A stretch of DNA of 64,000 nt. Source: an uncultured Gammaproteobacteria bacterium (GTDB lineage Bacteria > Patescibacteriota > Patescibacteriia > Magasanikbacterales > GWA2-37-8). A program made the translations under genes and the position numbers. The notes beneath the pieces are model-generated. The model worked only from the letters and a program-made list of their open reading frames with translations, searched no databases and was not told where the DNA came from. The first letter of the stretch is position 1; every line of letters starts with the position of its first letter. This document shows, in pieces, positions 40,020 to 49,471 of this stretch. Location of the stretch: positions 267,978 through 331,977 of the forward strand of contig CAYOXC010000001.1 of the NCBI GenBank assembly GCA_964407865.1, read 5' to 3'.

Positions 40020-40709
40020 TTAAGTTATTTTATAAACTACATCTTTTCTCTCCACTACCACTTTCCAGCCGGCGCGCTTTGCGTGCAAATAAAGTTTTTT
40101 GTTTGGATTAAAACAAATCGGATTGTCCACCATTTTTAAAAAAGCAATATCCATTTCAGTATCCCCTACGCCATAAGAATCCTTAAGGGTCAGGCCTTCT
40201 TTTTTAGCCGCTCTCTTTAATGTTTTAGCTTTATCGCGGGCTAGATCCTGAAACAAAACCTTTCCCGTAAATTTATTATTTTTACCAACTTCTAACTTTG
40301 TGCCATAGGCCTTGTCAAAACCCCAACCACGACAAAACTCTCGCACGATTTCAAACGGCGATCCTGAAATGGCCAATAAATAATATTTTTTCTTTTTCAA
40401 ATCTTTTATCAGCGCCCGGGTATGTCGGTAAACACGATTTTTATGAAAATTACTAACCGTCTTTACCACTTTCAAAAAATCATCATAATCAACCCCTGTA
40501 ATATGCTTAACAAATACAGCCACCACCGCTTCAATATATTTTTCATAACTACCTTTGCGTTCTGACCAATTTTTGTAGGCTCTGGCATAACCAGATCTGG
40601 CGGCAGGGGGAAACAAACCCTCTTGTACCAAGGATTCCACAACTTCAATCAGCAGGCTTGAACGAAAAATCGTCCCGTCAATGTCAAATATTGCGACTTT
40701 TTTAGTCAT
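40020..40709 (-). CDS. HAD-superfamily hydrolase (copy 1)
   Basis: 229 aa; FDIDGTI motif I; GVGDTEMD motif; 98-99% nucleotide identity to copy 2 at 42363-43046. Confidence 0.8.
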   Translation of the reverse strand: MTKKVAIFDIDGTIFRSSLLIEVVESLVQEGLFPPAARSGYARAYKNWSERKGSYEKYIEAVVAVFVKHITGVDYDDFLKVVKTVSNFHKNRVYRHTRALIKDLKKKKYYLLAISGSPFEIVREFCRGWGFDKAYGTKLEVGKNNKFTGKVLFQDLARDKAKTLKRAAKKEGLTLKDSYGVGDTEMDIAFLKMVDNPICFNPNKKLYLHAKRAGWKVVVERKDVVYKIT

Positions 40710-41264: not shown

Positions 41265-41666
41265 CTATTCAATTATACGCCTTCCCGCCTTAATCCGCGA
41301 ACGATGTATTTTGGATTCCTGTCGGCGTAGCTTTGACGCCTTGGTCGGTTTGGTCGGACGGCGAATCTTTGGTACATGCAAAGCGCGGACAACAAGCGCT
41401 TCCAGACGGGCAATAGCGAGCACCCGGTTCCGTCCCTGCGTTCGTTCCTCTTCGGATACAACCACCACCTCGTCGTTCAGATTTATCCGGTAGGCAAGTT
41501 TCACTCGAATCCGCGCCTTTTCATCGTCGGACAAAACGCGCGAACGTCCCACTTTCCAATGCACTGTCGCTTTAGTCGAGGTTTTGTTCACATTTTGCCC
41601 GCCCGCGCCCGATGACCGGGAAAATGTCACCAAGAGTTCGGATGGCGGAATACGACGTTGGTTCAT
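41265..41666 (-). CDS. arfB: Alternative ribosome-rescue factor ArfB (peptidyl-tRNA hydrolase, RF-1 domain)
   Basis: 133 aa; GGQ motif (SGAGGQNVNKTSTKA); basic C-terminal tail. Confidence 0.8.
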   Translation of the reverse strand: MNQRRIPPSELLVTFSRSSGAGGQNVNKTSTKATVHWKVGRSRVLSDDEKARIRVKLAYRINLNDEVVVVSEEERTQGRNRVLAIARLEALVVRALHVPKIRRPTKPTKASKLRRQESKIHRSRIKAGRRIIE

Positions 41667-41796
41667 ATTATACCCCGATTTTTTAAATCCACCTTTCCCC
41701 TAATTCATCGGAATCCTATCCGATAATTCCTAAATTTTATGGGTGTGGATAATTTTTTAAAAACCTTTAGTTCTAGGAGGGACAAATCGAATATAT

Positions 41797-42249
41797 TCAA
41801 CGCTTCCTGTGTAATAAGAAAAAAAATAGAACTAAAAAAATTATGGCAATAAAAAATACAATATAAATTTGGGGATAAACAAAATGAGCTGTATACAAGA
41901 GAACTGCCGTAATAATCGCCGCTAAAAATAATCCTAACACTCTTCGTTTAGCCACTTTTTTCGGGTCCGAAGACGCCAACTGTTTGCATCTTTTTTTCGC
42001 GTAAGCCCAGGATGAGAACGAGATGTGTCCTTCCCCAGCGATCCAAGGATCATCACCAAACATGGTGTACTGTTCGTACAATTGAGAAAAAGATTTACCC
42101 TTTCCTTTCATGGAATTACAATTTTTATCAACAATTTCCTTACAAACCCGTATTGCTTCATCCAAGCTATCATATTCATCAAACAAAATACGGTAATTTT
42201 TGTCCTGATAATGAAAATTGTCATCTACATAAACTCTGTATTTCCCCAT
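41797..42249 (-). CDS. Hypothetical protein with C-terminal TM helix
   Basis: 150 aa; sits between the full arfB and its truncated duplicate. Confidence 0.45.
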   Translation of the reverse strand: MGKYRVYVDDNFHYQDKNYRILFDEYDSLDEAIRVCKEIVDKNCNSMKGKGKSFSQLYEQYTMFGDDPWIAGEGHISFSSWAYAKKRCKQLASSDPKKVAKRRVLGLFLAAIITAVLLYTAHFVYPQIYIVFFIAIIFLVLFFFLLHRKR

Positions 42250-42269: not shown

Positions 42270-42350
42270 CTAAACATTTTGTCCGCCCGCGCCCGATGAG
42301 CGAGAAAATGTCACGAGAAGTTCGGATGGTGGAATGTGAACAGCGTTCAT
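42270..42350 (-). pseudogene. Truncated 5' fragment of arfB
   Basis: Translates MNAVHIPPSELLVTFSRSSGAGGQNV-stop. About 85% nucleotide identity to the first 75 nt of arfB at 41666; ends right after the GGQ motif. Confidence 0.6.
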
Positions 42351-42362
42351 AAAACTAAATAA

Positions 42363-43046
42363 TCAAAATTTATAAATAACATCTTTTCTCTCCACTACCA
42401 CTTTCCAGACGGCGCGCTTGGCGTGCAAATAAAGTTTTTTGTTTGGATTAAAACAAATCGGATTGTCCACCATTTTTAAAAAAGCAATATCCATTTCAGT
42501 ATCCCCTACGCCATAAGAATCCTTAAGGGTCAGGCCTTCTTTTTTAGCCGCTCTCTTTAATGTTTTAGCTTTATCGCGGGCTAGATCCTGAAACAAAACC
42601 TTTCCCGTAAATTTATTATTTTTACCAACTTCTAACTTTGTGCCATAGGCCTTGTCAAAACCCCAACCACGACAAAACTCTCGCACGATTTCAAACGGCG
42701 ATCCTGAAATGGCCAATAAATAATATTTTTTCTTTTTCAAATCTTTTATCAGCGCCCGGGTATGTCGGTAAACACGATTTTTATGAAAATTACTAACCGT
42801 CTTTACCACTTTCAAAAAATCATCATAATCAACCCCTGTAATATGCTTAACAAATACAGCCACCACCGCTTCAATATATTTTTCATAACTACCTTTGCGT
42901 TCTGACCAATTTTTGTAGGCTCTGGCATAACCAGATCTGGCGGCAGGGGGAAACAAACCCTCTTGTACCAAGGATTCCACAACTTCAATAAGCAAGCTTG
43001 AACGGAAAATTGTACCATCAATGTCAAATATGGCGGTTTTTTTCAT
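42363..43046 (-). CDS. HAD-superfamily hydrolase (copy 2)
   Basis: 227 aa; near-identical to copy 1 except at both termini. Confidence 0.8.
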   Translation of the reverse strand: MKKTAIFDIDGTIFRSSLLIEVVESLVQEGLFPPAARSGYARAYKNWSERKGSYEKYIEAVVAVFVKHITGVDYDDFLKVVKTVSNFHKNRVYRHTRALIKDLKKKKYYLLAISGSPFEIVREFCRGWGFDKAYGTKLEVGKNNKFTGKVLFQDLARDKAKTLKRAAKKEGLTLKDSYGVGDTEMDIAFLKMVDNPICFNPNKKLYLHAKRAVWKVVVERKDVIYKF

Positions 43047-43052
43047 AAAAAT

Positions 43053-43508
43053 CTATCTTTCAAATTCTTTAACAAATTTTAAATATTTTTTCTGTATATT
43101 TTCAGAAATTTTATCTATTCCTAATTTTTTAATACCTTCATAATACACAATTCGCGAGCATTCACCAAAATAAAAACCTTCTAGTGTTGCAACAAACAAC
43201 CAGGAGGGATCCCATCTTTTCATCTGTTTTTTTGCGGTTCTTATAATTTCATCAATATTAAATTTTGATTGGAATTTTACCTCAACCAAAAAGATGGACT
43301 TACCATCACGCATTATCAGAGCATAATCCGGAGCAGTGCGAATATTATCTACCACTTTTTTTGCACTCGGATTTTGAAATCGCGCTAATTCAGGAACAAT
43401 TTTTTCATACCCAAAAGGAATTACTGTATACCCCTTTGCCTCCCTAAACATTTCCTCAAAAATAACTTCTGCAATTTTTCCTTTAATAAAATTTTTCACA
43501 TTTTTCAT
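43053..43508 (-). CDS. Small PD-(D/E)xK-like nuclease-fold protein
   Basis: 151 aa; ...PDYALIMRDGKSIFLVEVKFQ... fits a D...(D/E)xK restriction-endonuclease-like core. Confidence 0.45.
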   Translation of the reverse strand: MKNVKNFIKGKIAEVIFEEMFREAKGYTVIPFGYEKIVPELARFQNPSAKKVVDNIRTAPDYALIMRDGKSIFLVEVKFQSKFNIDEIIRTAKKQMKRWDPSWLFVATLEGFYFGECSRIVYYEGIKKLGIDKISENIQKKYLKFVKEFER

Positions 43509-44983
43509 ACTTGTTTTCTTAAAAAATTATATAACTCTACCATGGCAAAAGTGTCACGCTCACAGTATTCCAAAAGTTGCTTTTTAACCTCCTCTTTATT
43601 CTTAACCTCTCCAAAAACCAAATCGTAAATTGCTTCCATCGCTTCTCCACCGCCCTGCACTTCCAAATCCACATAACTCAATTTAGGGAAAAGTACCGGT
43701 AAAACCGCCTTCAAAGACGCGCTACCTTTAAAGCGATAATCAACATATCCCTCTTTAAAAATCAATTTTAAATCTTTCATCCGACGGTTCACATCAGCCA
43801 TAAACTCAGCATATCTTGGAACCACTTCCCCTATCTCTTTATTTCTTCCTTTTTCAAAAACATCATGCCAAGCAATCACCGTACCAGTATCACCAATCTG
43901 TTCACGCAAAAATTTAGCGATCGGTTCAAAAGGTGAACTTTTAGAAATATGTAAATATTCATAATGCCTTACTTCGCCACCCGGCTCATCTTGAACATGC
44001 AGGGAATATTGCATGGGGATCTGTTGCCACGGTCGCGTACCGTCGAAAAGCGGTAGGGGTGAAGAAATGGTTTCGTAATCTAAATAATATAAAGGGTATT
44101 TATATTTTTCTAAACTTTCAGCAATTACCTCTTTATTAACTTCTACACTCTGCTTTTTCGTCAATTCAATTTGCCTAATTTGATCAACATGCATTTTTTC
44201 ACTTATAGGGATATCCTTCAACAACAAAATACCCTGTTCTACCAATTCATTTATTTTTTCTTGTCCAAAACGCCCGCTCAAATCATAGATACTATAATCA
44301 GGCAACCCCTTATAATATTCCTCGTACATGAGCGGCGGCAATTCGTATTCAAAACTTTTTTTCCAGGCCTTAACCTCCGGTTTTTTATCACCTATAATAA
44401 TTTCGTAAGCTCTATCCATCTCTTTTAATTCATCATCCAATCCAGCCATAATCTCATCGGTCATATCCTCAACAATAAACAATTTATTCAATTCCAGTCC
44501 TTTGTTAGCCCGGTAAACATACTCACGATTCAGGTGTATCAAATAAGCAGCTTTTATTTCAATGCCGGATAAATTAAAAACATTTACTTGAAATTGTAAG
44601 TCATGAATATATTTCGTCTTGTGTTTTTTAAAATCTGAACTACTTTTTACCTCATACAAATGCCAGCCATCTCTTTTTTTAACTAAAATATCCGCCCGTG
44701 CTAAAAATTTATCGGTCATGGCTTGGGCTTGGTAAATAACCTGAGCACCCTTGGTGATTAATTCCTGGGTTTCTTTGGATCCACTATCATAATAAGTCTT
44801 CACTTCTACTCCTTTTTCAAAAAGACCATGTGCCACTGCTTCTACTTCTTGGCCCTGGTGAAAAATCAATTTATCTTTTTCCTTCATCAGTTCCGGCTTG
44901 TGTTTGGCCAACCATGCATAAAGCGGACACTCCACATAACGCATGTAATCGGTTTTAGATATTACTGATAAGCGACTAGACAT
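43505..44983 (-). CDS. DUF2779-like protein with N-terminal RecB/Cas4-like nuclease module
   Basis: 492 aa; N-terminal ECPLYAWL...DILVKK...YEVKSSS (PD-(D/E)xK); C-terminal YYLDYETISSPLP RNase-H-like/DUF2779 pattern; 4-nt overlap with the downstream nuclease gene. Confidence 0.55.
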   Translation of the reverse strand: MSSRLSVISKTDYMRYVECPLYAWLAKHKPELMKEKDKLIFHQGQEVEAVAHGLFEKGVEVKTYYDSGSKETQELITKGAQVIYQAQAMTDKFLARADILVKKRDGWHLYEVKSSSDFKKHKTKYIHDLQFQVNVFNLSGIEIKAAYLIHLNREYVYRANKGLELNKLFIVEDMTDEIMAGLDDELKEMDRAYEIIIGDKKPEVKAWKKSFEYELPPLMYEEYYKGLPDYSIYDLSGRFGQEKINELVEQGILLLKDIPISEKMHVDQIRQIELTKKQSVEVNKEVIAESLEKYKYPLYYLDYETISSPLPLFDGTRPWQQIPMQYSLHVQDEPGGEVRHYEYLHISKSSPFEPIAKFLREQIGDTGTVIAWHDVFEKGRNKEIGEVVPRYAEFMADVNRRMKDLKLIFKEGYVDYRFKGSASLKAVLPVLFPKLSYVDLEVQGGGEAMEAIYDLVFGEVKNKEEVKKQLLEYCERDTFAMVELYNFLRKQV

Positions 44984-45295
44984 ATAATTATTTTATTTAA
45001 AGTATTATCCCACTTTAACCGACACAAAACAAGTAAAAACAAAAAAGCGGCTAAAAGATTCCATCTAAAAATTATGTGCCCATCTATAGTCTCTTGCGAA
45101 ACAGTAGAGGGTTACATGCTCTTCAAATGAAATCTTCCAACCGCCTTGGTGGTTTATCGTCAAAACCCGTTTTTTCGGGTTTTTTCGTTTGTTTTTACTA
45201 AAAAGTACTCGGATATACTATAGCACATTTTGACGATTTTGTCAATAGCTAGATTTGGCTAAGATTGGGCAAAATAAAATTTTATATTATTCAAT

Positions 45296-45452
45296 CTTCA
45301 TTATAACCAAGGGGATCGTCATTGTCTGGAAGCTTTTCATCCAATTCTAAAACCCGATTCTCTAATCCACTAATTCTATTATTAGTTCCTCTAAGACCCG
45401 CAAAAATAAGAATAATTGCAATTAGAAAAAATATATCCCAACCACTCATATT
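45296..45452 (-). CDS. Small single-TM protein (52 aa)
   Basis: MSGWDIFFLIAIILIFAGLRGTNNRISGLENRVLELDEKLPDNDDPLGYNED read from the sequence; below the ORF-track cutoff. Confidence 0.3.
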
Positions 45453-45458
45453 ATTTAG

Positions 45459-45734
45459 TTAATTTTTAAAAAAATCTTTAATCTCTTTTGGTAGTTTTGA
45501 TATTTTCATGCGGTTAATTAAATAACCTTTAGTCAGCAAGAATTTAACTCTATCCATATCTTTTTTGTCTTCCATATACAGTTCAGCGGCGTAATTCAAT
45601 AAACCAAAAGAAAAAATATCTTGAATCGGTAAATTTTTAAAATATTTCTTGTATTTTAAATAAAAATCAATTACAGCCTTTTCTTCTTCTTTTGAAAACT
45701 TCGGATACATTGTGTCAAAAACTTCTTTGGGCAT
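45459..45734 (-). CDS. Hypothetical protein
   Basis: 91 aa, Lys-rich; no recognisable domain. Confidence 0.4.
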   Translation of the reverse strand: MPKEVFDTMYPKFSKEEEKAVIDFYLKYKKYFKNLPIQDIFSFGLLNYAAELYMEDKKDMDRVKFLLTKGYLINRMKISKLPKEIKDFFKN

Positions 45735-45917
45735 AAAAAATAGTTTTTCTTATTATCCCACTTTAGCCGGTTTTGGACAAGTTCTAGATAAAACAAAACC
45801 CCGAAAAACGGGGCTTTGAAAAATAATTAGTTCGGCCGCGTTTAGTGCGATAATTTCAGCTGGCACAGCTTTTTCGACCATACATTTTCCGCTCCGCACG
45901 CGCGTCCTACTTTAAAT

Positions 45918-46091
45918 TATTTTTTAAAAATAAACCTTTCGTTACATTCTTTACACTCATAAATTGGGTGTTCTGGCATATTAATTGGTTTTCCCGGTAT
46001 ATAATCCTGAACATCTCCAAAACGAGAACCAGAATCTTCAATGTCAGTAGAATGACATTCTGGGCACTCTAATATATTTGTGGTTTTCATA
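45918..46091 (-). CDS. Small zinc-ribbon protein (57 aa)
   Basis: MKTTNILECPECHSTDIEDSG...IYECKECNERFIFKK with two CxxC pairs; strong RBS AGAGGAGGTG 8 nt upstream; hairpin terminator downstream. Confidence 0.5.
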
Positions 46092-46350: not shown

Positions 46351-47259
46351 TTATTTAAAAATATCTAAATATTTTTTTGATATGAATAAGCCGTTTTCTC
46401 TAATTTTTTCTGCATTCCATTTACGTTGTCGTAAAATATTTTTTGTCAAATAATTATTTTTTTCAATGTCGCGATAAACGGACTTTTTTTCTTTGAAACC
46501 CTTATCGCTAAGCGAAGAGTTGTCCGCATGTGCTAAAATTAACATATTACCAATCGATTGAATATAATACTTATAATAAAAATCTAACTTATCATCTAAT
46601 TCTAGAAAACGATTTGTTTCACGACTAACAATTGAATCTTTTGCAAGATCGTTCTTCACAATATCAAACCATTCTTTACGGAGGTTTAAAACTCCATTAT
46701 TCATGGTTTGTGGCATGATGTGTTCTAAAGTCTTATCAAATTTTTTAATATCTAATTCAGTAATGTTTGAACCTGCGTTCTTCTTAAGAACTCTAAACAA
46801 TAAATATATTACACCATTCTTTTTTGCACGTAACAATGTTAATCGTGATAATCTGTCAGAGTTATTTTGTTTTAGCTCAGTTAATTTTTTCTTTAATAAT
46901 GCATTTATTTTGGACAACGACCTTTTGTCGTTTAATTGCCACATCAAACTATAAAAGAAATTTTTTATTACTTGAGGTAACGCACCCTCTGACACATTTT
47001 GAAATAAAAATTGTATTGCTTCTACATATTTAATAGCCTCTAAGAAATCTTGGTTAAAACCTTTGGTGGTTTTAATAAATTTTAATAACAAAGGAAGATG
47101 TGATTTATATCCCAAATAATTAATGCAATCTATCGAGTCATTAATTTCTTTAATAATACGGGACCTGTTGGTCGATCTATTTTTTAACAAATCGTAATAC
47201 TTTAAATATTCGATTAATGATTTTAATATCAATAGTGTATCGTTGTTATTTCTTTTCAT
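46351..47259 (-). CDS. GmrSD-family C-terminal half (DUF1524 / HNH-like)
   Basis: 302 aa; LEHIMPQ motif typical of DUF1524; overlaps the upstream DUF262 gene by 4 nt. Confidence 0.6.
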   Translation of the reverse strand: MKRNNNDTLLILKSLIEYLKYYDLLKNRSTNRSRIIKEINDSIDCINYLGYKSHLPLLLKFIKTTKGFNQDFLEAIKYVEAIQFLFQNVSEGALPQVIKNFFYSLMWQLNDKRSLSKINALLKKKLTELKQNNSDRLSRLTLLRAKKNGVIYLLFRVLKKNAGSNITELDIKKFDKTLEHIMPQTMNNGVLNLRKEWFDIVKNDLAKDSIVSRETNRFLELDDKLDFYYKYYIQSIGNMLILAHADNSSLSDKGFKEKKSVYRDIEKNNYLTKNILRQRKWNAEKIRENGLFISKKYLDIFK

Positions 47260-48104
47260 GCATTCATTTTTAAAAAAGGCGTATGATTTTGACGATTAAA
47301 ATTATCTTCTTTTTTAGATTCAGCAAAACAAAAGTATTCAATAAAATTTTCTCTCTCACTATTCTTTGAAAAATAATTATAAAATTCATTCCATAATTTT
47401 AAGGCCTCAATCTGTTTTGATTGCGGGGTTTCGCTTAATAAATAATTTTTAATGAGATCGGCGCTTGATAATTCTACTCGTTTTGAATTAATTGCCTCAA
47501 AAATATCTGACTCCTCTGCAGTGTGACTTAACTCAATAATAACAAACTCAACACCTTGAAATATGAAATTATAAATTTGATTAATTTGTTTTTTTGTCAT
47601 ACCAGTAAAAAGCTCATCGAAAGTTTCGATTGCCAATACCACATTTTCTGATAAAGTTCTGTGTTCACTTGTATAGACATCAATATTATCGCCATTCCAA
47701 ATTACAGCCTTAAAAAATTCATTTCTTTGCGTTTCATTCAAATCAATGTCCAATCTTTGAAATGTGGTTTTACTAAACCATTGTTTTATATCTCTTTTAT
47801 TATCATCGTCGAGCTTGCCTGAACGCAATAAGCAACGTAATAAAATAATTATTGTAATTATGCGTTGTTGGCCGTCAACTATATAAACTTGTTTGTTTTT
47901 ATAGTCTTTAGTAAGCAATGTCCCCAGATATAAAGTACGTTTATCTTTAATACAAACCTCAATATCTGCTACCAACTGTTCAATTAATTCCCTATTCCAC
48001 GCATAAAATCTTTGATATGGCGGAATAACAATTGTATTTTGAAAAAATTTTGTTAAAAAAATACACGGCACCGGGCTTACTATATTTTTTTTAAAGTTTA
48101 TCAT
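47256..48104 (-). CDS. GmrSD-family N-terminal half (DUF262 / ParB-like nuclease domain)
   Basis: 282 aa; VIPPYQRFYAWNRELIEQLVADI matches the DUF262 [IV]PxYQRxYxW core. Confidence 0.7.
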   Translation of the reverse strand: MINFKKNIVSPVPCIFLTKFFQNTIVIPPYQRFYAWNRELIEQLVADIEVCIKDKRTLYLGTLLTKDYKNKQVYIVDGQQRIITIIILLRCLLRSGKLDDDNKRDIKQWFSKTTFQRLDIDLNETQRNEFFKAVIWNGDNIDVYTSEHRTLSENVVLAIETFDELFTGMTKKQINQIYNFIFQGVEFVIIELSHTAEESDIFEAINSKRVELSSADLIKNYLLSETPQSKQIEALKLWNEFYNYFSKNSERENFIEYFCFAESKKEDNFNRQNHTPFLKMNA

Positions 48105-48119
48105 ACTTTATAAAGCTTA

Positions 48120-48641
48120 CTAATTTGGATTAGATAGACCTAATTTAAATAATGGCAAATATTCAAAATAATATTGACAGCCCACAGAAATAATATAATC
48201 AAGGACGTCTTTATATTGTGGTTTACGAAACCAGTCGCTTAGTATATAAATATATTCAACTTCAATATTTAACGGCGCCATCAATTTAGCATACTGTTTT
48301 CTTTTAAAATCACAAGTCTGTAATTTTTCATCAACCGAGCCGGCAACTTTTTGAAATTTAACCTCAATAACAAATAATGTATTGTTAATAATTACATACA
48401 AGGCCTCATCAGGTAAAAGCTTTTTCGATAATATTTTTTTATAATTAACACCCTTAAATTCGAGAAATTTATATAAGGCATTTTTTCTATAGCTTCGCGC
48501 AACTTCTTTATCCTGAAAAAAAATTACCGAACCTTTAACAGCATATCCTTTTTTCTTTTTCAGAAGTGAAAGAATATCTATTTCCTTTTCAAAATTTAAG
48601 CCTGTAATAGTGTTTCCACCCCCAACGCCTTTTTCTTTCAT
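48120..48641 (-). CDS. Putative type II restriction endonuclease
   Basis: 173 aa; PDEALYVIINNTLFVIEVKFQ fits PD-(D/E)xK; 4-nt overlap with the methyltransferase gene. Confidence 0.5.
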   Translation of the reverse strand: MKEKGVGGGNTITGLNFEKEIDILSLLKKKKGYAVKGSVIFFQDKEVARSYRKNALYKFLEFKGVNYKKILSKKLLPDEALYVIINNTLFVIEVKFQKVAGSVDEKLQTCDFKRKQYAKLMAPLNIEVEYIYILSDWFRKPQYKDVLDYIISVGCQYYFEYLPLFKLGLSNPN

Positions 48642-49471
48642 AATTTTATATCTTTTAAACGTTTAACAGATAGATCCAAATATTTTTTCTCCAAATCAAT
48701 ACCGACAAATTTTCTGTTATTTAATATCGCTGCCAAACCTGTCGTGGCCGAACCAGAAAATGGATCTAAAACAATATCACCCTTATCAGTGCTTGCTAAA
48801 ATAATTCTTACCAATAAATCAATTGGTTTTTGAGTTGGATGTTTACCAAATTTTTTCTCATCTTTTTTCGGTGGATAAATTGACCAGACGCTTCGCATTT
48901 GTAAATTTGGTTTTTTTATAAAATCTTCTGACCAATCACCGTTTTTCATCAAACCATAATTAAACTTGTGTTTTCCTTTTTTATCTTTCCTCGCCCAAAT
49001 CAAAGTCTCATGACTAGCGGTAAAAAAACGACAACTTAAATTAGGCGACGCGTTCGGCTTGAACCATGCGATATCGTTTAAAATATGAAATTTTTCTACC
49101 TGTAATGCAAAACCGCATTGATATATTGAATGATACGTACCGCTTATCCAAATCGTACCGCCCGGCTTTAAAACTCGCTGACATGCTTTTATCCATGAAA
49201 GGTGAAATTCAAAATCTTTTTTAACACCATTGCTTATATCCCATTTACCTTTGTTTACACTAACCATTTTTCCGCCATCACAAGTAAAACCGCCGTTAGA
49301 CAAAAGATAAGGGGGATCTGCAAAAATCATGTCGATGGAATTTTCAGGCAACTGTGCCAAGGTATTTAAGCAGTTATCACGATATAAAACAAAATCCCCT
49401 TTCTGAAAATAGGGTTTTTTTGCAATTTTTGATAAAATCTTGGTCATTTTACTCTTTGCCTTTTTGGGCAT
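48638..49471 (-). CDS. DNA methyltransferase (N4-cytosine/N6-adenine, beta class)
   Basis: 277 aa; IFADPPY (motif IV) precedes DPFSGSATTG (motif I). Confidence 0.85.
   Translation of the reverse strand: MPKKAKSKMTKILSKIAKKPYFQKGDFVLYRDNCLNTLAQLPENSIDMIFADPPYLLSNGGFTCDGGKMVSVNKGKWDISNGVKKDFEFHLSWIKACQRVLKPGGTIWISGTYHSIYQCGFALQVEKFHILNDIAWFKPNASPNLSCRFFTASHETLIWARKDKKGKHKFNYGLMKNGDWSEDFIKKPNLQMRSVWSIYPPKKDEKKFGKHPTQKPIDLLVRIILASTDKGDIVLDPFSGSATTGLAAILNNRKFVGIDLEKKYLDLSVKRLKDIKL

What the first reader, a model, noticed from the sequence alone, without database searches (positions are those of the whole stretch)
43053..44983. Operon of a DUF2779-like two-nuclease-module protein and a small PD-(D/E)xK protein heading a defense island
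A 492-aa protein with an N-terminal RecB/Cas4-like PD-(D/E)xK module and a C-terminal RNase-H-like/DUF2779 pattern overlaps by 4 nt a 151-aa protein with a D...EVK restriction-endonuclease-like core. They sit immediately upstream of small proteins, a split GmrSD and an R-M system. Defense genes cluster, so this pair is a candidate uncharacterised defense or DNA-processing module.
Basis: partly seen in the sequence, partly recalled or inferred. Interest (0 to 1): 0.55.

Follow-up and report, generated by a model that had tools for sequence, protein, structure and literature searches.

The report
Two unlinked nuclease genes, adjacent here
Two nuclease genes overlap by 4 bases next to a restriction island in a Patescibacteria genome, but they almost never occur together elsewhere, so they are two separate genes and not a new two-gene defence system.

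Summary
ORFs 43505-44983(-) (492 aa) and 43053-43508(-) (151 aa) overlap by 4 nt (ATGA). The large protein is a clear DUF2779/PF11074 member (E 7.8e-36). It has a Cas4/RecB-like PD-(D/E)xK N-domain (D98, E111, K113) and a DEDDy-type exonuclease C-domain (D302, E304, Y473, D477). The small protein is a minimal PD-(D/E)xK nuclease (E14, D61, E76, K78) with no Pfam family. A split GmrSD and an MTase plus putative REase lie beside them.

The module interpretation fails. Only 2 of 80 loci encoding the small protein have an adjacent DUF2779 gene, both in other arrangements, and one more has it 6.4 kb away. None of 113 DUF2779 loci has the small gene within 5 kb. The closest relatives of each gene lack the other. 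Neither gene has any conserved neighbour.

The DUF2779 two-nuclease architecture is already published (NAR 2014; mSphere 2026, quasi-essential in JCVI-syn3.0). The small protein belongs to an unnamed family found mostly in Patescibacteria. It is AT-rich, patchy in distribution and sometimes multi-copy, which marks it as accessory.

Verdict: a lineage-specific juxtaposition at the border of a variable island. The family membership is ordinary. Interest is low.

The parts
43505..44983 (-). DUF2779-family protein, 492 aa. N-terminal Cas4/RecB-like PD-(D/E)xK nuclease (about residues 1-200; D98, E111, K113, Q132), a helical linker, and a C-terminal DEDDy-type 3'-5' exonuclease (about 298-492; D302, E304, E377/D404, Y473, D477). 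Only two cysteines (C19, C474).
43053..43508 (-). Stand-alone minimal PD-(D/E)xK nuclease, 151 aa, with E14, PFGYE31-35, PD60-61, EVK76-78 and W99 invariant. Member of an unnamed family found mostly in Patescibacteria. Its start overlaps the DUF2779 stop by 4 nt.
42363..43046 (-). HAD-family hydrolase, the second, near-identical copy of 40020-40709. It starts 6 nt after the small nuclease gene and is probably co-transcribed. It is absent from this position in relative L085.
45217..45245 (-). Sigma-70-like promoter match (TTGACA, 17-nt spacer, TG-extended TATAGT; 11 of 12 positions), about 230 nt upstream of the DUF2779 start codon.
   Evidence: A consensus match only.
45162..45183 (.). G+C-rich hairpin (AAAACCCG...CGGGTTTT) inside the 307-nt leader between the promoter match and the DUF2779 start. 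No Rfam family matches.
45291..46090 (-). Three orphan small ORFs: 52 aa (45291-45449), 91 aa (45459-45734) and a 57-aa zinc-ribbon protein (45917-46090). No homolog was found in the related loci tested (L085-L207).
46351..48104 (-). GmrSD-like type IV restriction enzyme split into two ORFs with a 4-nt overlap: GmrSD_N at 47256-48104 and GmrSD_C at 46351-47259. The best PADLOC match is HEC-06.
48120..49471 (-). Type II R-M-like pair: an N6_N4 DNA methyltransferase (48638-49471) and a 173-aa ORF with a weak PDDEXK_11 hit (48120-48641), overlapping by 4 nt.
   Evidence: Homologs of both also occur in L079.

Best explanation
These are two unrelated nuclease genes with independent distributions. 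In this one Patescibacteria lineage they have ended up abutting, and are probably translationally coupled. They sit at the border between a syntenic core block (ArfB, DUF333, GIY-YIG) and an AT-rich variable island (R-M, split GmrSD, orphan small ORFs).

Gene 1 is an ordinary member of the DUF2779 family. It fuses a Cas4/RecB-type PD-(D/E)xK nuclease to a DEDDy 3'-5' exonuclease, and both active sites are intact. Inferred mechanism: one polypeptide attacks DNA ends or flaps with both polarities. The PD-(D/E)xK domain would act 5'->3' or on single strands, and the DEDD domain 3'->5'. The role would be end resection or degradation of linear DNA, in repair or against foreign DNA.

Gene 2 is a minimal Hjc/RecU/YraN-like PD-(D/E)xK endonuclease with an E...PD...ExK site. 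It behaves as a mobile accessory gene with no fixed partner. Inferred mechanism: a small, probably dimeric, metal-dependent DNA endonuclease that is structure- or site-specific.

Shown here: the domain and fold assignments, the conserved catalytic residues, the lack of co-occurrence, the synteny and the base composition. Inferred: substrates, polarity and biological role.
For: Domains and catalytic residues.

No conserved pairing:
- 2 adjacent and 1 nearby among 80 small-gene loci, 65 of which have at least 1.5 kb on both sides.
- 0 of 113 DUF2779 loci, 90 of which have at least 500 nt on both sides.
- Neighbour clustering finds no conserved neighbour for either gene, and the Pfam and PADLOC hits of the immediate neighbours are heterogeneous.

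Synteny:
- L085 has small, ArfB, (NERD), DUF333 and GIY-YIG collinear with the window at 65-80% amino-acid identity, and no DUF2779.
- L093 has the MTase (71% amino-acid identity) and DUF2779 (60-69%) collinear with the window, but different cargo between them and no small gene.

Composition (GC3):
- The small gene is at 0.23 in both the window and L085, against 0.55 for ArfB.
- Island cargo is at 0.19-0.29.
- DUF2779 is at 0.34 in the window but 0.61 in L093, which is core-like there.

Accessory behaviour of the small gene:
- Two copies occur in some MAGs (L037/L045; L052/L055).
- Serine recombinases lie within four genes in 9 of 78 loci and HUH Rep-like proteins in 7 of 78.

Literature: the two-nuclease architecture of DUF2779 is described in PMC3985635 and PMC13621843.
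Against: - The 4-nt overlap suggests co-expression in this genome.
- Two further independent adjacencies (L052, L066) exceed the random expectation of 0.16-0.27, giving P(>=2) of about 0.01-0.03. Some weak association exists. I attribute it to both genes living in variable islands, but a loose functional link is not excluded.
- The related loci were found by peptide patterns plus tblastn, so very divergent partners could be missed.
- Genome-level co-occurrence (same genome, not adjacent) was not measured.
- No biochemistry exists for either family.
Confidence: 0.8

Rival explanations
1. DUF2779 and the small PD-(D/E)xK protein form a dedicated two-gene defence or DNA-processing module. The small nuclease would nick or cut target DNA, and the dual exonuclease would then degrade it.
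For: - 4-nt overlap.
- Location beside R-M and GmrSD.
- Two more adjacencies, in L052 and L066, both inside island-like contexts. This is a mild excess over chance.
Against: - 0 of 113 DUF2779 loci have the partner, and 77 of 80 small-gene loci have no DUF2779 within 8 kb.
- The three adjacencies have three different arrangements: DUF2779 then small, small then DUF2779, and convergent.
- The closest homologs of each gene lack the other.
- Neither protein matches a PADLOC defence model, apart from a sub-threshold Cas4 hit.
Confidence: 0.06
2. DUF2779 on its own is a defence or anti-MGE effector, a solo-Cas4-like nuclease that degrades invading linear DNA. It belongs to the island as cargo, and the small gene is unrelated to it.
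For: - Close homologs sit next to toxin-antitoxin, Fic/RhuM, Bro-N and R-M genes.
- Among the +-1 neighbours of 80 metagenomic loci, 5-7 of 142 proteins are type I/III restriction subunits and 4 are UvrD-like helicases.
- The family occurs on 32 plasmids and 33 IMG/VR contigs.
- On Aliarcobacter plasmid pACRY43158 it lies in a tight same-strand run between a Qat system and AAA, hypothetical and dGTPase genes.
- The mSphere 2026 paper discusses it under 'immunity connections'.
Against: - It is quasi-essential in the minimal cell JCVI-syn3.0 (PMC13621843).
- A transposon mutant in this gene was among those recovered in a Mycoplasma bovis cell-culture screen (PMC7373297).
- Its GC3 is core-like in L093.
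- It has no conserved partner.
- I could not compute a background rate for defence neighbours, so the association is only qualitative.
Confidence: 0.3
3. The small protein is a housekeeping Holliday-junction resolvase or YraN-type enzyme of this organism, part of the core block with ArfB.
For: - Best structural matches are Hjc ST1444 and RecU.
- Weak YraN hit, TIGR00252 at 1.6e-4.
- JGI names one homolog a 'Holliday junction resolvase-like predicted endonuclease'.
- Adjacency to ArfB is conserved in L085.
Against: - Only 123 loci were found in a collection of 185,579 species genomes. The search was pattern-limited, so this is a lower bound.
- There is no conserved context in 78 loci, and some MAGs carry two copies.
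- GC3 of 0.23 is far below the neighbouring core genes in two genomes.
- The YraN score of 21.6 is well below the cutoff of 69, and the fold matches are weak (TM about 0.4).
Confidence: 0.1

Closest known systems
DUF2779 / PF11074 family (for example MMSYN1_0389 of JCVI-syn3.0; RNase H-like family F.17 of Majorek et al. 2014)
   Same: Full-length Pfam match. Same two-domain architecture: Cas4-like PD-(D/E)xK with conserved D/E/K, plus a DEDD exonuclease with tyrosine in the h/y position. As in MMSYN1_0389, the Cas4 Fe-S cysteines are mostly missing.
   Different: 492 aa against a longer Mycoplasma protein, whose DEDD domain starts at about residue 460. The NCBIfam UU173 subfamily score is below cutoff, 71.6 against 225. 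Here the gene sits beside an R-M/GmrSD island.
Cas4 (CRISPR adaptation nuclease) and solo-Cas4
   Same: PD-(D/E)xK RecB-type fold. The top Foldseek hit is Cas4 Pcal_0546, 4r5q. The D...ExK and QxxxY-type motifs are conserved.
   Different: TIGR00372 scores 14.3 against a cutoff of 65. The four-cysteine cluster is absent. None of the neighbouring genes scanned matched a cas model. The protein carries an extra DEDD exonuclease domain.
TM0106-family RecB-like nuclease (TIGR03491; PF13482/COG2251 group)
   Same: The same design idea, a RecB-like nuclease fused to an RNase-H-like exonuclease. Some DUF2779 homologs also hit PF13482. Majorek et al. 2014 place the two families close together.
   Different: Score 21.7 against a cutoff of 97.45, so it is not a member.
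Archaeal Hjc, bacterial RecU, and YraN (UPF0102) minimal PD-(D/E)xK nucleases
   Same: The small protein has the same size class, the same alpha-beta-beta-beta-alpha-beta core, and an E...PD...ExK catalytic arrangement. These are its best structural and HMM matches.
   Different: Only weak similarity: TM 0.38-0.44 and 13-17% identity. It falls below every family cutoff. It has its own invariant PFGYE and W99 motifs. Its distribution is patchy and island-associated, not that of a core gene.

Membership tests
DUF2779 (Pfam PF11074) | Match to the family HMM above the gathering score | tested here: met
   123.6 bits against 23.3, E 7.8e-36, profile positions 1-126 of 126.
DUF2779 (Pfam PF11074) | N-terminal Cas4-like PD-(D/E)xK domain with conserved Asp, Glu and Lys (as described for MMSYN1_0389) | tested here: met
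   D98, E111 and K113 are invariant in 56 homologs. Foldseek matches to Cas4, RecE and MGME1 at probability 1.0.
DUF2779 (Pfam PF11074) | C-terminal DEDD(h/y) exonuclease with the acidic residues and a Tyr or His before the last Asp | tested here: met
   D302, E304, E377, D404, Y473 and D477 are invariant. Which of E377 and D404 is the ExoII residue was not resolved.
Cas4 (TIGR00372 / PF01930) | HMM score above the family cutoff | tested here: not met
   14.3 bits against 65. There is no Pfam Cas4 hit for this protein.
Cas4 (TIGR00372 / PF01930) | Four cysteines that ligate an Fe-S cluster | tested here: not met
   Only C19 and C474 are present. 21 of 56 homologs keep at least 3 Cys in the 190-235 region, but this clade does not.
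UU173 family (NF045869) and TM0106 family (TIGR03491) | HMM score above the curated cutoff | tested here: not met
   71.6 against 225, and 21.7 against 97.45.
PD-(D/E)xK nuclease superfamily (small protein) | Conserved (P)D...(D/E)xK motif on a restriction-endonuclease-like alpha/beta core | tested here: met
   PD60-61 and EVK76-78 are invariant, as is E14. AF2 pLDDT is 87.9. All top fold hits are PD-(D/E)xK enzymes. Family members hit TnsA_N, VRR_NUC and REase-ARP weakly.
YraN / UPF0102 | HMM score above cutoff | tested here: not met
   TIGR00252 scores 21.6 against 69.05. There is no Pfam hit.
Holliday junction resolvase (Hjc / RecU) | Close structural similarity and cleavage of four-way junctions | tested here: inconclusive
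   Best hit 2eo0, E 9e-4, TM 0.38-0.44, rmsd about 9 A. Junction cleavage cannot be tested with these tools.
Conserved multi-gene defence system (any) | The component genes co-occur as neighbours across genomes | tested here: not met
   2 of 80 adjacent, and 0 of 113 in the reverse direction. There are no PADLOC system hits for either protein beyond a weak Cas4 match.
GmrSD type IV restriction (neighbour) | Both the DUF262/GmrSD_N and DUF1524/GmrSD_C domains are present | tested here: met
   PF03235 at 3.2e-29 and PF07510 at 8e-15, on two overlapping ORFs. PADLOC HEC-06 matches both.
Type II R-M (neighbour) | A methyltransferase with a cognate restriction endonuclease | tested here: inconclusive
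   The MTase is clear (PF01555 2.3e-57; PADLOC MTase_II 4.7e-95). The 173-aa partner has only a weak PDDEXK_11 hit, 7.6e-4, below cutoff.

The most novel reading that the evidence does not exclude
The roughly 155-aa PD-(D/E)xK family (E...PFGYE...PD...EVK...W) has no Pfam or NCBIfam model. It has about 800 representatives at the 50% identity level and is found almost only in Patescibacteria. It may be a new stand-alone nuclease that is mobile-island or defence associated. Its repeated, differently arranged adjacency to DUF2779 (the window, L052, L066) could reflect a loose functional cooperation: an endonuclease that creates ends, and a dual exonuclease that degrades them.
Probability: 0.12. 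Interest if true: 0.45.

Novelty: new member of a known kind. Interest (0 to 1): 0.2.

Why it matters
Mainly as a caution. A 4-nt gene overlap beside defence genes looked like a new two-gene system, but comparative genomics shows the pairing is specific to one lineage.

Two modest positives remain:
- DUF2779 is a widespread, still uncharacterised dual nuclease. It is quasi-essential in the minimal cell. Here it has both active sites intact but lacks the Cas4 Fe-S cysteines, which makes this a simple variant for biochemistry.
- The small protein defines an unnamed PD-(D/E)xK family, found mostly in Patescibacteria, that behaves like accessory or mobile cargo.

Tried and rejected
- Conserved partner search. 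I clustered the +-3 or +-4 neighbours of 78 small-gene loci and 116 DUF2779 loci. No family recurred at a fixed position.
- Pfam and PADLOC on the +-1 neighbours. The hits were heterogeneous. Without a background rate I did not claim defence enrichment.
- Sequence search of the PDB with single sequences and with profiles found nothing meaningful.
- The small protein has no match in IMG/VR, curated phages or plasmids.
- Rfam and tRNA scans of the leader and the window gave only one tRNA-Ser, far away.
- I tested the idea that the DUF2779 5' end is a general integration site. A duplicated 5' fragment occurs in L093 only, 1 of 116 loci, and not in the window. I rejected it as a general feature.
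- A hidden second copy or fragment of DUF2779 in the window: none found.

Full report
OBSERVATION.
The two ORFs exist exactly as described: 43505..44983(-) at 492 aa and 43053..43508(-) at 151 aa. They share ATGA, a 4-nt stop/start overlap. A HAD hydrolase gene (42363..43046) follows only 6 nt after the small gene, so a putative operon would contain three genes. The best sigma-70-like promoter match in the region (TTGACA, 17-nt spacer, TGcTATAGT; 45245..45217) lies about 230 nt upstream of the large gene, with a hairpin in the leader. No Rfam family matches there. On the coding strand the pair lies downstream (3') of the island genes, not at their head.

THE LARGE PROTEIN.
- Pfam DUF2779 matches at E 7.8e-36, far above the gathering score.
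- N-terminal similarity to Cas4/RecB-type nucleases is weak by sequence: PADLOC Cas4 2.3e-4, TIGR03491 8e-5, TIGR00372 0.027.
- The high-confidence AF2 model (pLDDT 94.9) finds Cas4 4r5q, RecE and MGME1 as best PDB matches at probability 1.0. It also finds a DinG entry (9kqh).
- In an alignment of 56 homologs, D98, E111, V112, K113 and Q132 (PD-(D/E)xK) are invariant. So are D302, E304, E377, D404, Y473 and D477 (DEDDy-type).
- The protein has only two cysteines (C19, C474). 21 of 56 homologs retain a three-Cys cluster around residues 190-235. This clade has therefore lost the Cas4 Fe-S ligands.
- This two-nuclease architecture is already in the literature. Majorek et al. 2014 placed PF11074 among the 3'-5' exonucleases and noted its fusion to a PD-(D/E)xK (DUF83) domain (PMC3985635). 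A 2026 mSphere paper describes MMSYN1_0389, a quasi-essential DUF2779 protein of JCVI-syn3.0, as a Cas4-like plus DEDDh/y fusion with incomplete cysteines (PMC13621843).

THE SMALL PROTEIN.
- It has no Pfam, PADLOC or PHROG family. The only sequence hit is a weak YraN match, TIGR00252 at 1.6e-4, 21.6 bits against a cutoff of 69.
- Forty homologs at 41-67% identity show invariant G10, I12, E14, F17, M20, PFGYE31-35, P39, I56, PD60-61, EVK76-78 and W99. This is a classical E...PD...ExK site.
- The AF2 model (pLDDT 87.9) gives only weak, generic PD-(D/E)xK matches. These are Hjc ST1444, RecU, cap-snatching endonucleases and small phage endonucleases, with TM 0.38-0.54.
- A profile search of 1.84 billion representative proteins finds 809 members at E<=1e-3 and 278 at E<=1e-10. 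Nearly all are about 155 aa and stand-alone.
- A few members carry extensions. One has an FtsK-gamma winged-helix DNA-binding domain, which points to DNA as the substrate.

THE KEY TEST: CO-OCCURRENCE.
- Small-gene loci. The family was located at 123 loci in species-representative genomes. Nearly all record titles are Patescibacteria/CPR lineages. Eighty loci were fetched with up to 8 kb of flank.
- DUF2779 is within the flank in 3 of 80. In L052 it is adjacent but convergent. In L066 it is adjacent but in the opposite order. In L034 it is 6.4 kb away. Sixty-five loci have at least 1.5 kb on both sides.
- DUF2779 loci. None of 80 metagenomic and none of 33 IMG/VR loci contains the small gene within 5 kb. 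Ninety of these loci have at least 500 nt on both sides.
- Clustering of the neighbouring ORFs finds no recurrent partner for either gene.
- The two extra adjacencies exceed the random expectation of 0.16-0.27, giving P(>=2) of about 0.01-0.03. Both lie in island-like settings. L066 has an SF1 helicase and a WYL protein. L052 has an MmeI fragment, a DinG-like helicase and a serine recombinase. I read the excess as co-residence in variable regions, not as a module.

SYNTENY AND COMPOSITION.
- L085 carries the closest small-gene homolog (66% identity). Its order is small, ArfB, NERD, DUF333, GIY-YIG. This is collinear with window 43.5->38.3 kb at 65-80% amino-acid identity. Upstream it has a 1048-aa lipase-like protein and a 90-aa protein in place of DUF2779.
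- L091, L093 and L094 carry the closest DUF2779 homologs (62-63% identity). None has a small partner. All lie next to variable cargo: RhuM/Fic, Bro-N, SocA-Panacea with PemK, HigB, and Eco57I-type or N6_N4 methylases.
- L093 shares the window's MTase (71% amino-acid identity) and DUF2779, but the genes between them differ.
- GC3 of the small gene is 0.23 in both the window and L085, like the island cargo (0.19-0.29) and unlike ArfB (0.55).
- GC3 of DUF2779 is 0.34 in the window but 0.61 in L093, which is core-like there.
- The juxtaposition therefore sits at the junction of a core block and a variable island, and it is specific to this lineage.

MECHANISM (INFERRED).
DUF2779 most plausibly processes DNA ends with two polarities in one polypeptide. 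The small protein is most plausibly a metal-dependent DNA endonuclease, possibly dimeric like Hjc and RecU.

Whether DUF2779 serves repair or defence is open. For defence-like use: it occurs on 32 plasmids, including a tight cluster between a Qat system and a dGTPase on Aliarcobacter pACRY43158. It also often lies near restriction and toxin-antitoxin genes. For housekeeping: it is quasi-essential in syn3.0 and has core-like composition in L093.

VERDICT.
The domain calls are supported. The claim of a two-gene module is not supported. DUF2779 is a known, uncharacterised family. The small protein is a new, unnamed member of the PD-(D/E)xK superfamily. Interest is low (0.2).

Noticed in passing
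window 40020-40709 and 42363-43046; also 41590-41667 and 42274-42351: The HAD hydrolase gene is present twice, 99% identical over 300 nt, with near-identical proteins. A 78-nt copy (82% identical) of the ArfB 5' end lies just downstream of the second HAD copy. In relative L085 the small nuclease gene is followed directly by ArfB. HAD', the ArfB fragment and a 150-aa membrane ORF (41797-42249) therefore look like a recent duplication or insertion. Four Logan contigs break exactly at this repeat.
   Followed up: partly
L093:1830-2041 against L093:4572-6029: A 200-nt copy (80% nucleotide, 73% amino-acid identity) of the DUF2779 5' end forms a 101-aa ORF between the R-M pair and Bro-N/RhuM-Fic cargo, upstream of the intact DUF2779 gene. 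This looks like an insertion at the gene's 5' end. It was found in only 1 of 116 DUF2779 loci, and not in the window.
   Followed up: yes
window 48120-48641 against L093:1167-1727: The N6_N4 methyltransferases of the window and L093 are 71% identical. The small ORFs that overlap their 3' ends (173 aa and 186 aa) show no detectable similarity (blastp E>0.2). The putative restriction partner seems to have been swapped while the methylase was kept.
   Followed up: partly
window 46351-48104: The GmrSD-like enzyme is split into N- and C-domain ORFs with a 4-nt overlap at 47256-47259. The PADLOC HEC-06 models it matches are single proteins of about 560 aa. I did not examine whether this is a natural two-subunit form or a decayed gene.
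   Followed up: no
window 44984-45290: A 307-nt leader lies upstream of DUF2779. It has a near-consensus extended -10 promoter match (45245..45217), a strong hairpin (45162-45183) and a palindrome (45261-45298). There is no Rfam match.
   Followed up: partly
window 45291-46090: Three small ORFs (52 aa with a hydrophobic N-terminus, 91 aa, and a 57-aa zinc ribbon resembling IS1/IS1595 N-terminal domains below cutoff) have no homolog in the related loci tested (L085-L207).
   Followed up: partly
L208 (NZ_CP032824.1, Aliarcobacter cryaerophilus plasmid pACRY43158) 1-13482: A DUF2779 gene lies in a same-strand run with gaps of about 1 nt: AAA ATPase, P-loop NTPase, hypothetical, QatC, TatD hydrolase, DUF2779, a 928-aa AAA protein, a 491-aa hypothetical, then a dGTPase after a wider gap. 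DUF2779 with the AAA protein and the hypothetical could be a separate candidate system there.
   Followed up: no
L007 / protein P0027: One member of the small-nuclease family is fused to a C-terminal FtsK-gamma winged-helix domain (PF09397, 7.4e-20). Other members have unassigned extensions of 40-90 aa.
   Followed up: partly
L202, L203 (IMG/VR contigs of 640 and 676 kb): Distant DUF2779 homologs (24-25% identity) occur on very large contigs labelled viral. These could be huge phages, or small CPR-sized genomes misclassified as viral. L176 and L182 show two DUF2779 copies about 17 kb apart on one 55-kb IMG/VR contig.
   Followed up: no
L037/L045 (same contig) and L052/L055 (same MAG): Some Patescibacteria MAGs carry two copies of the small nuclease gene at distant positions. 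This fits accessory or mobile behaviour.
   Followed up: no
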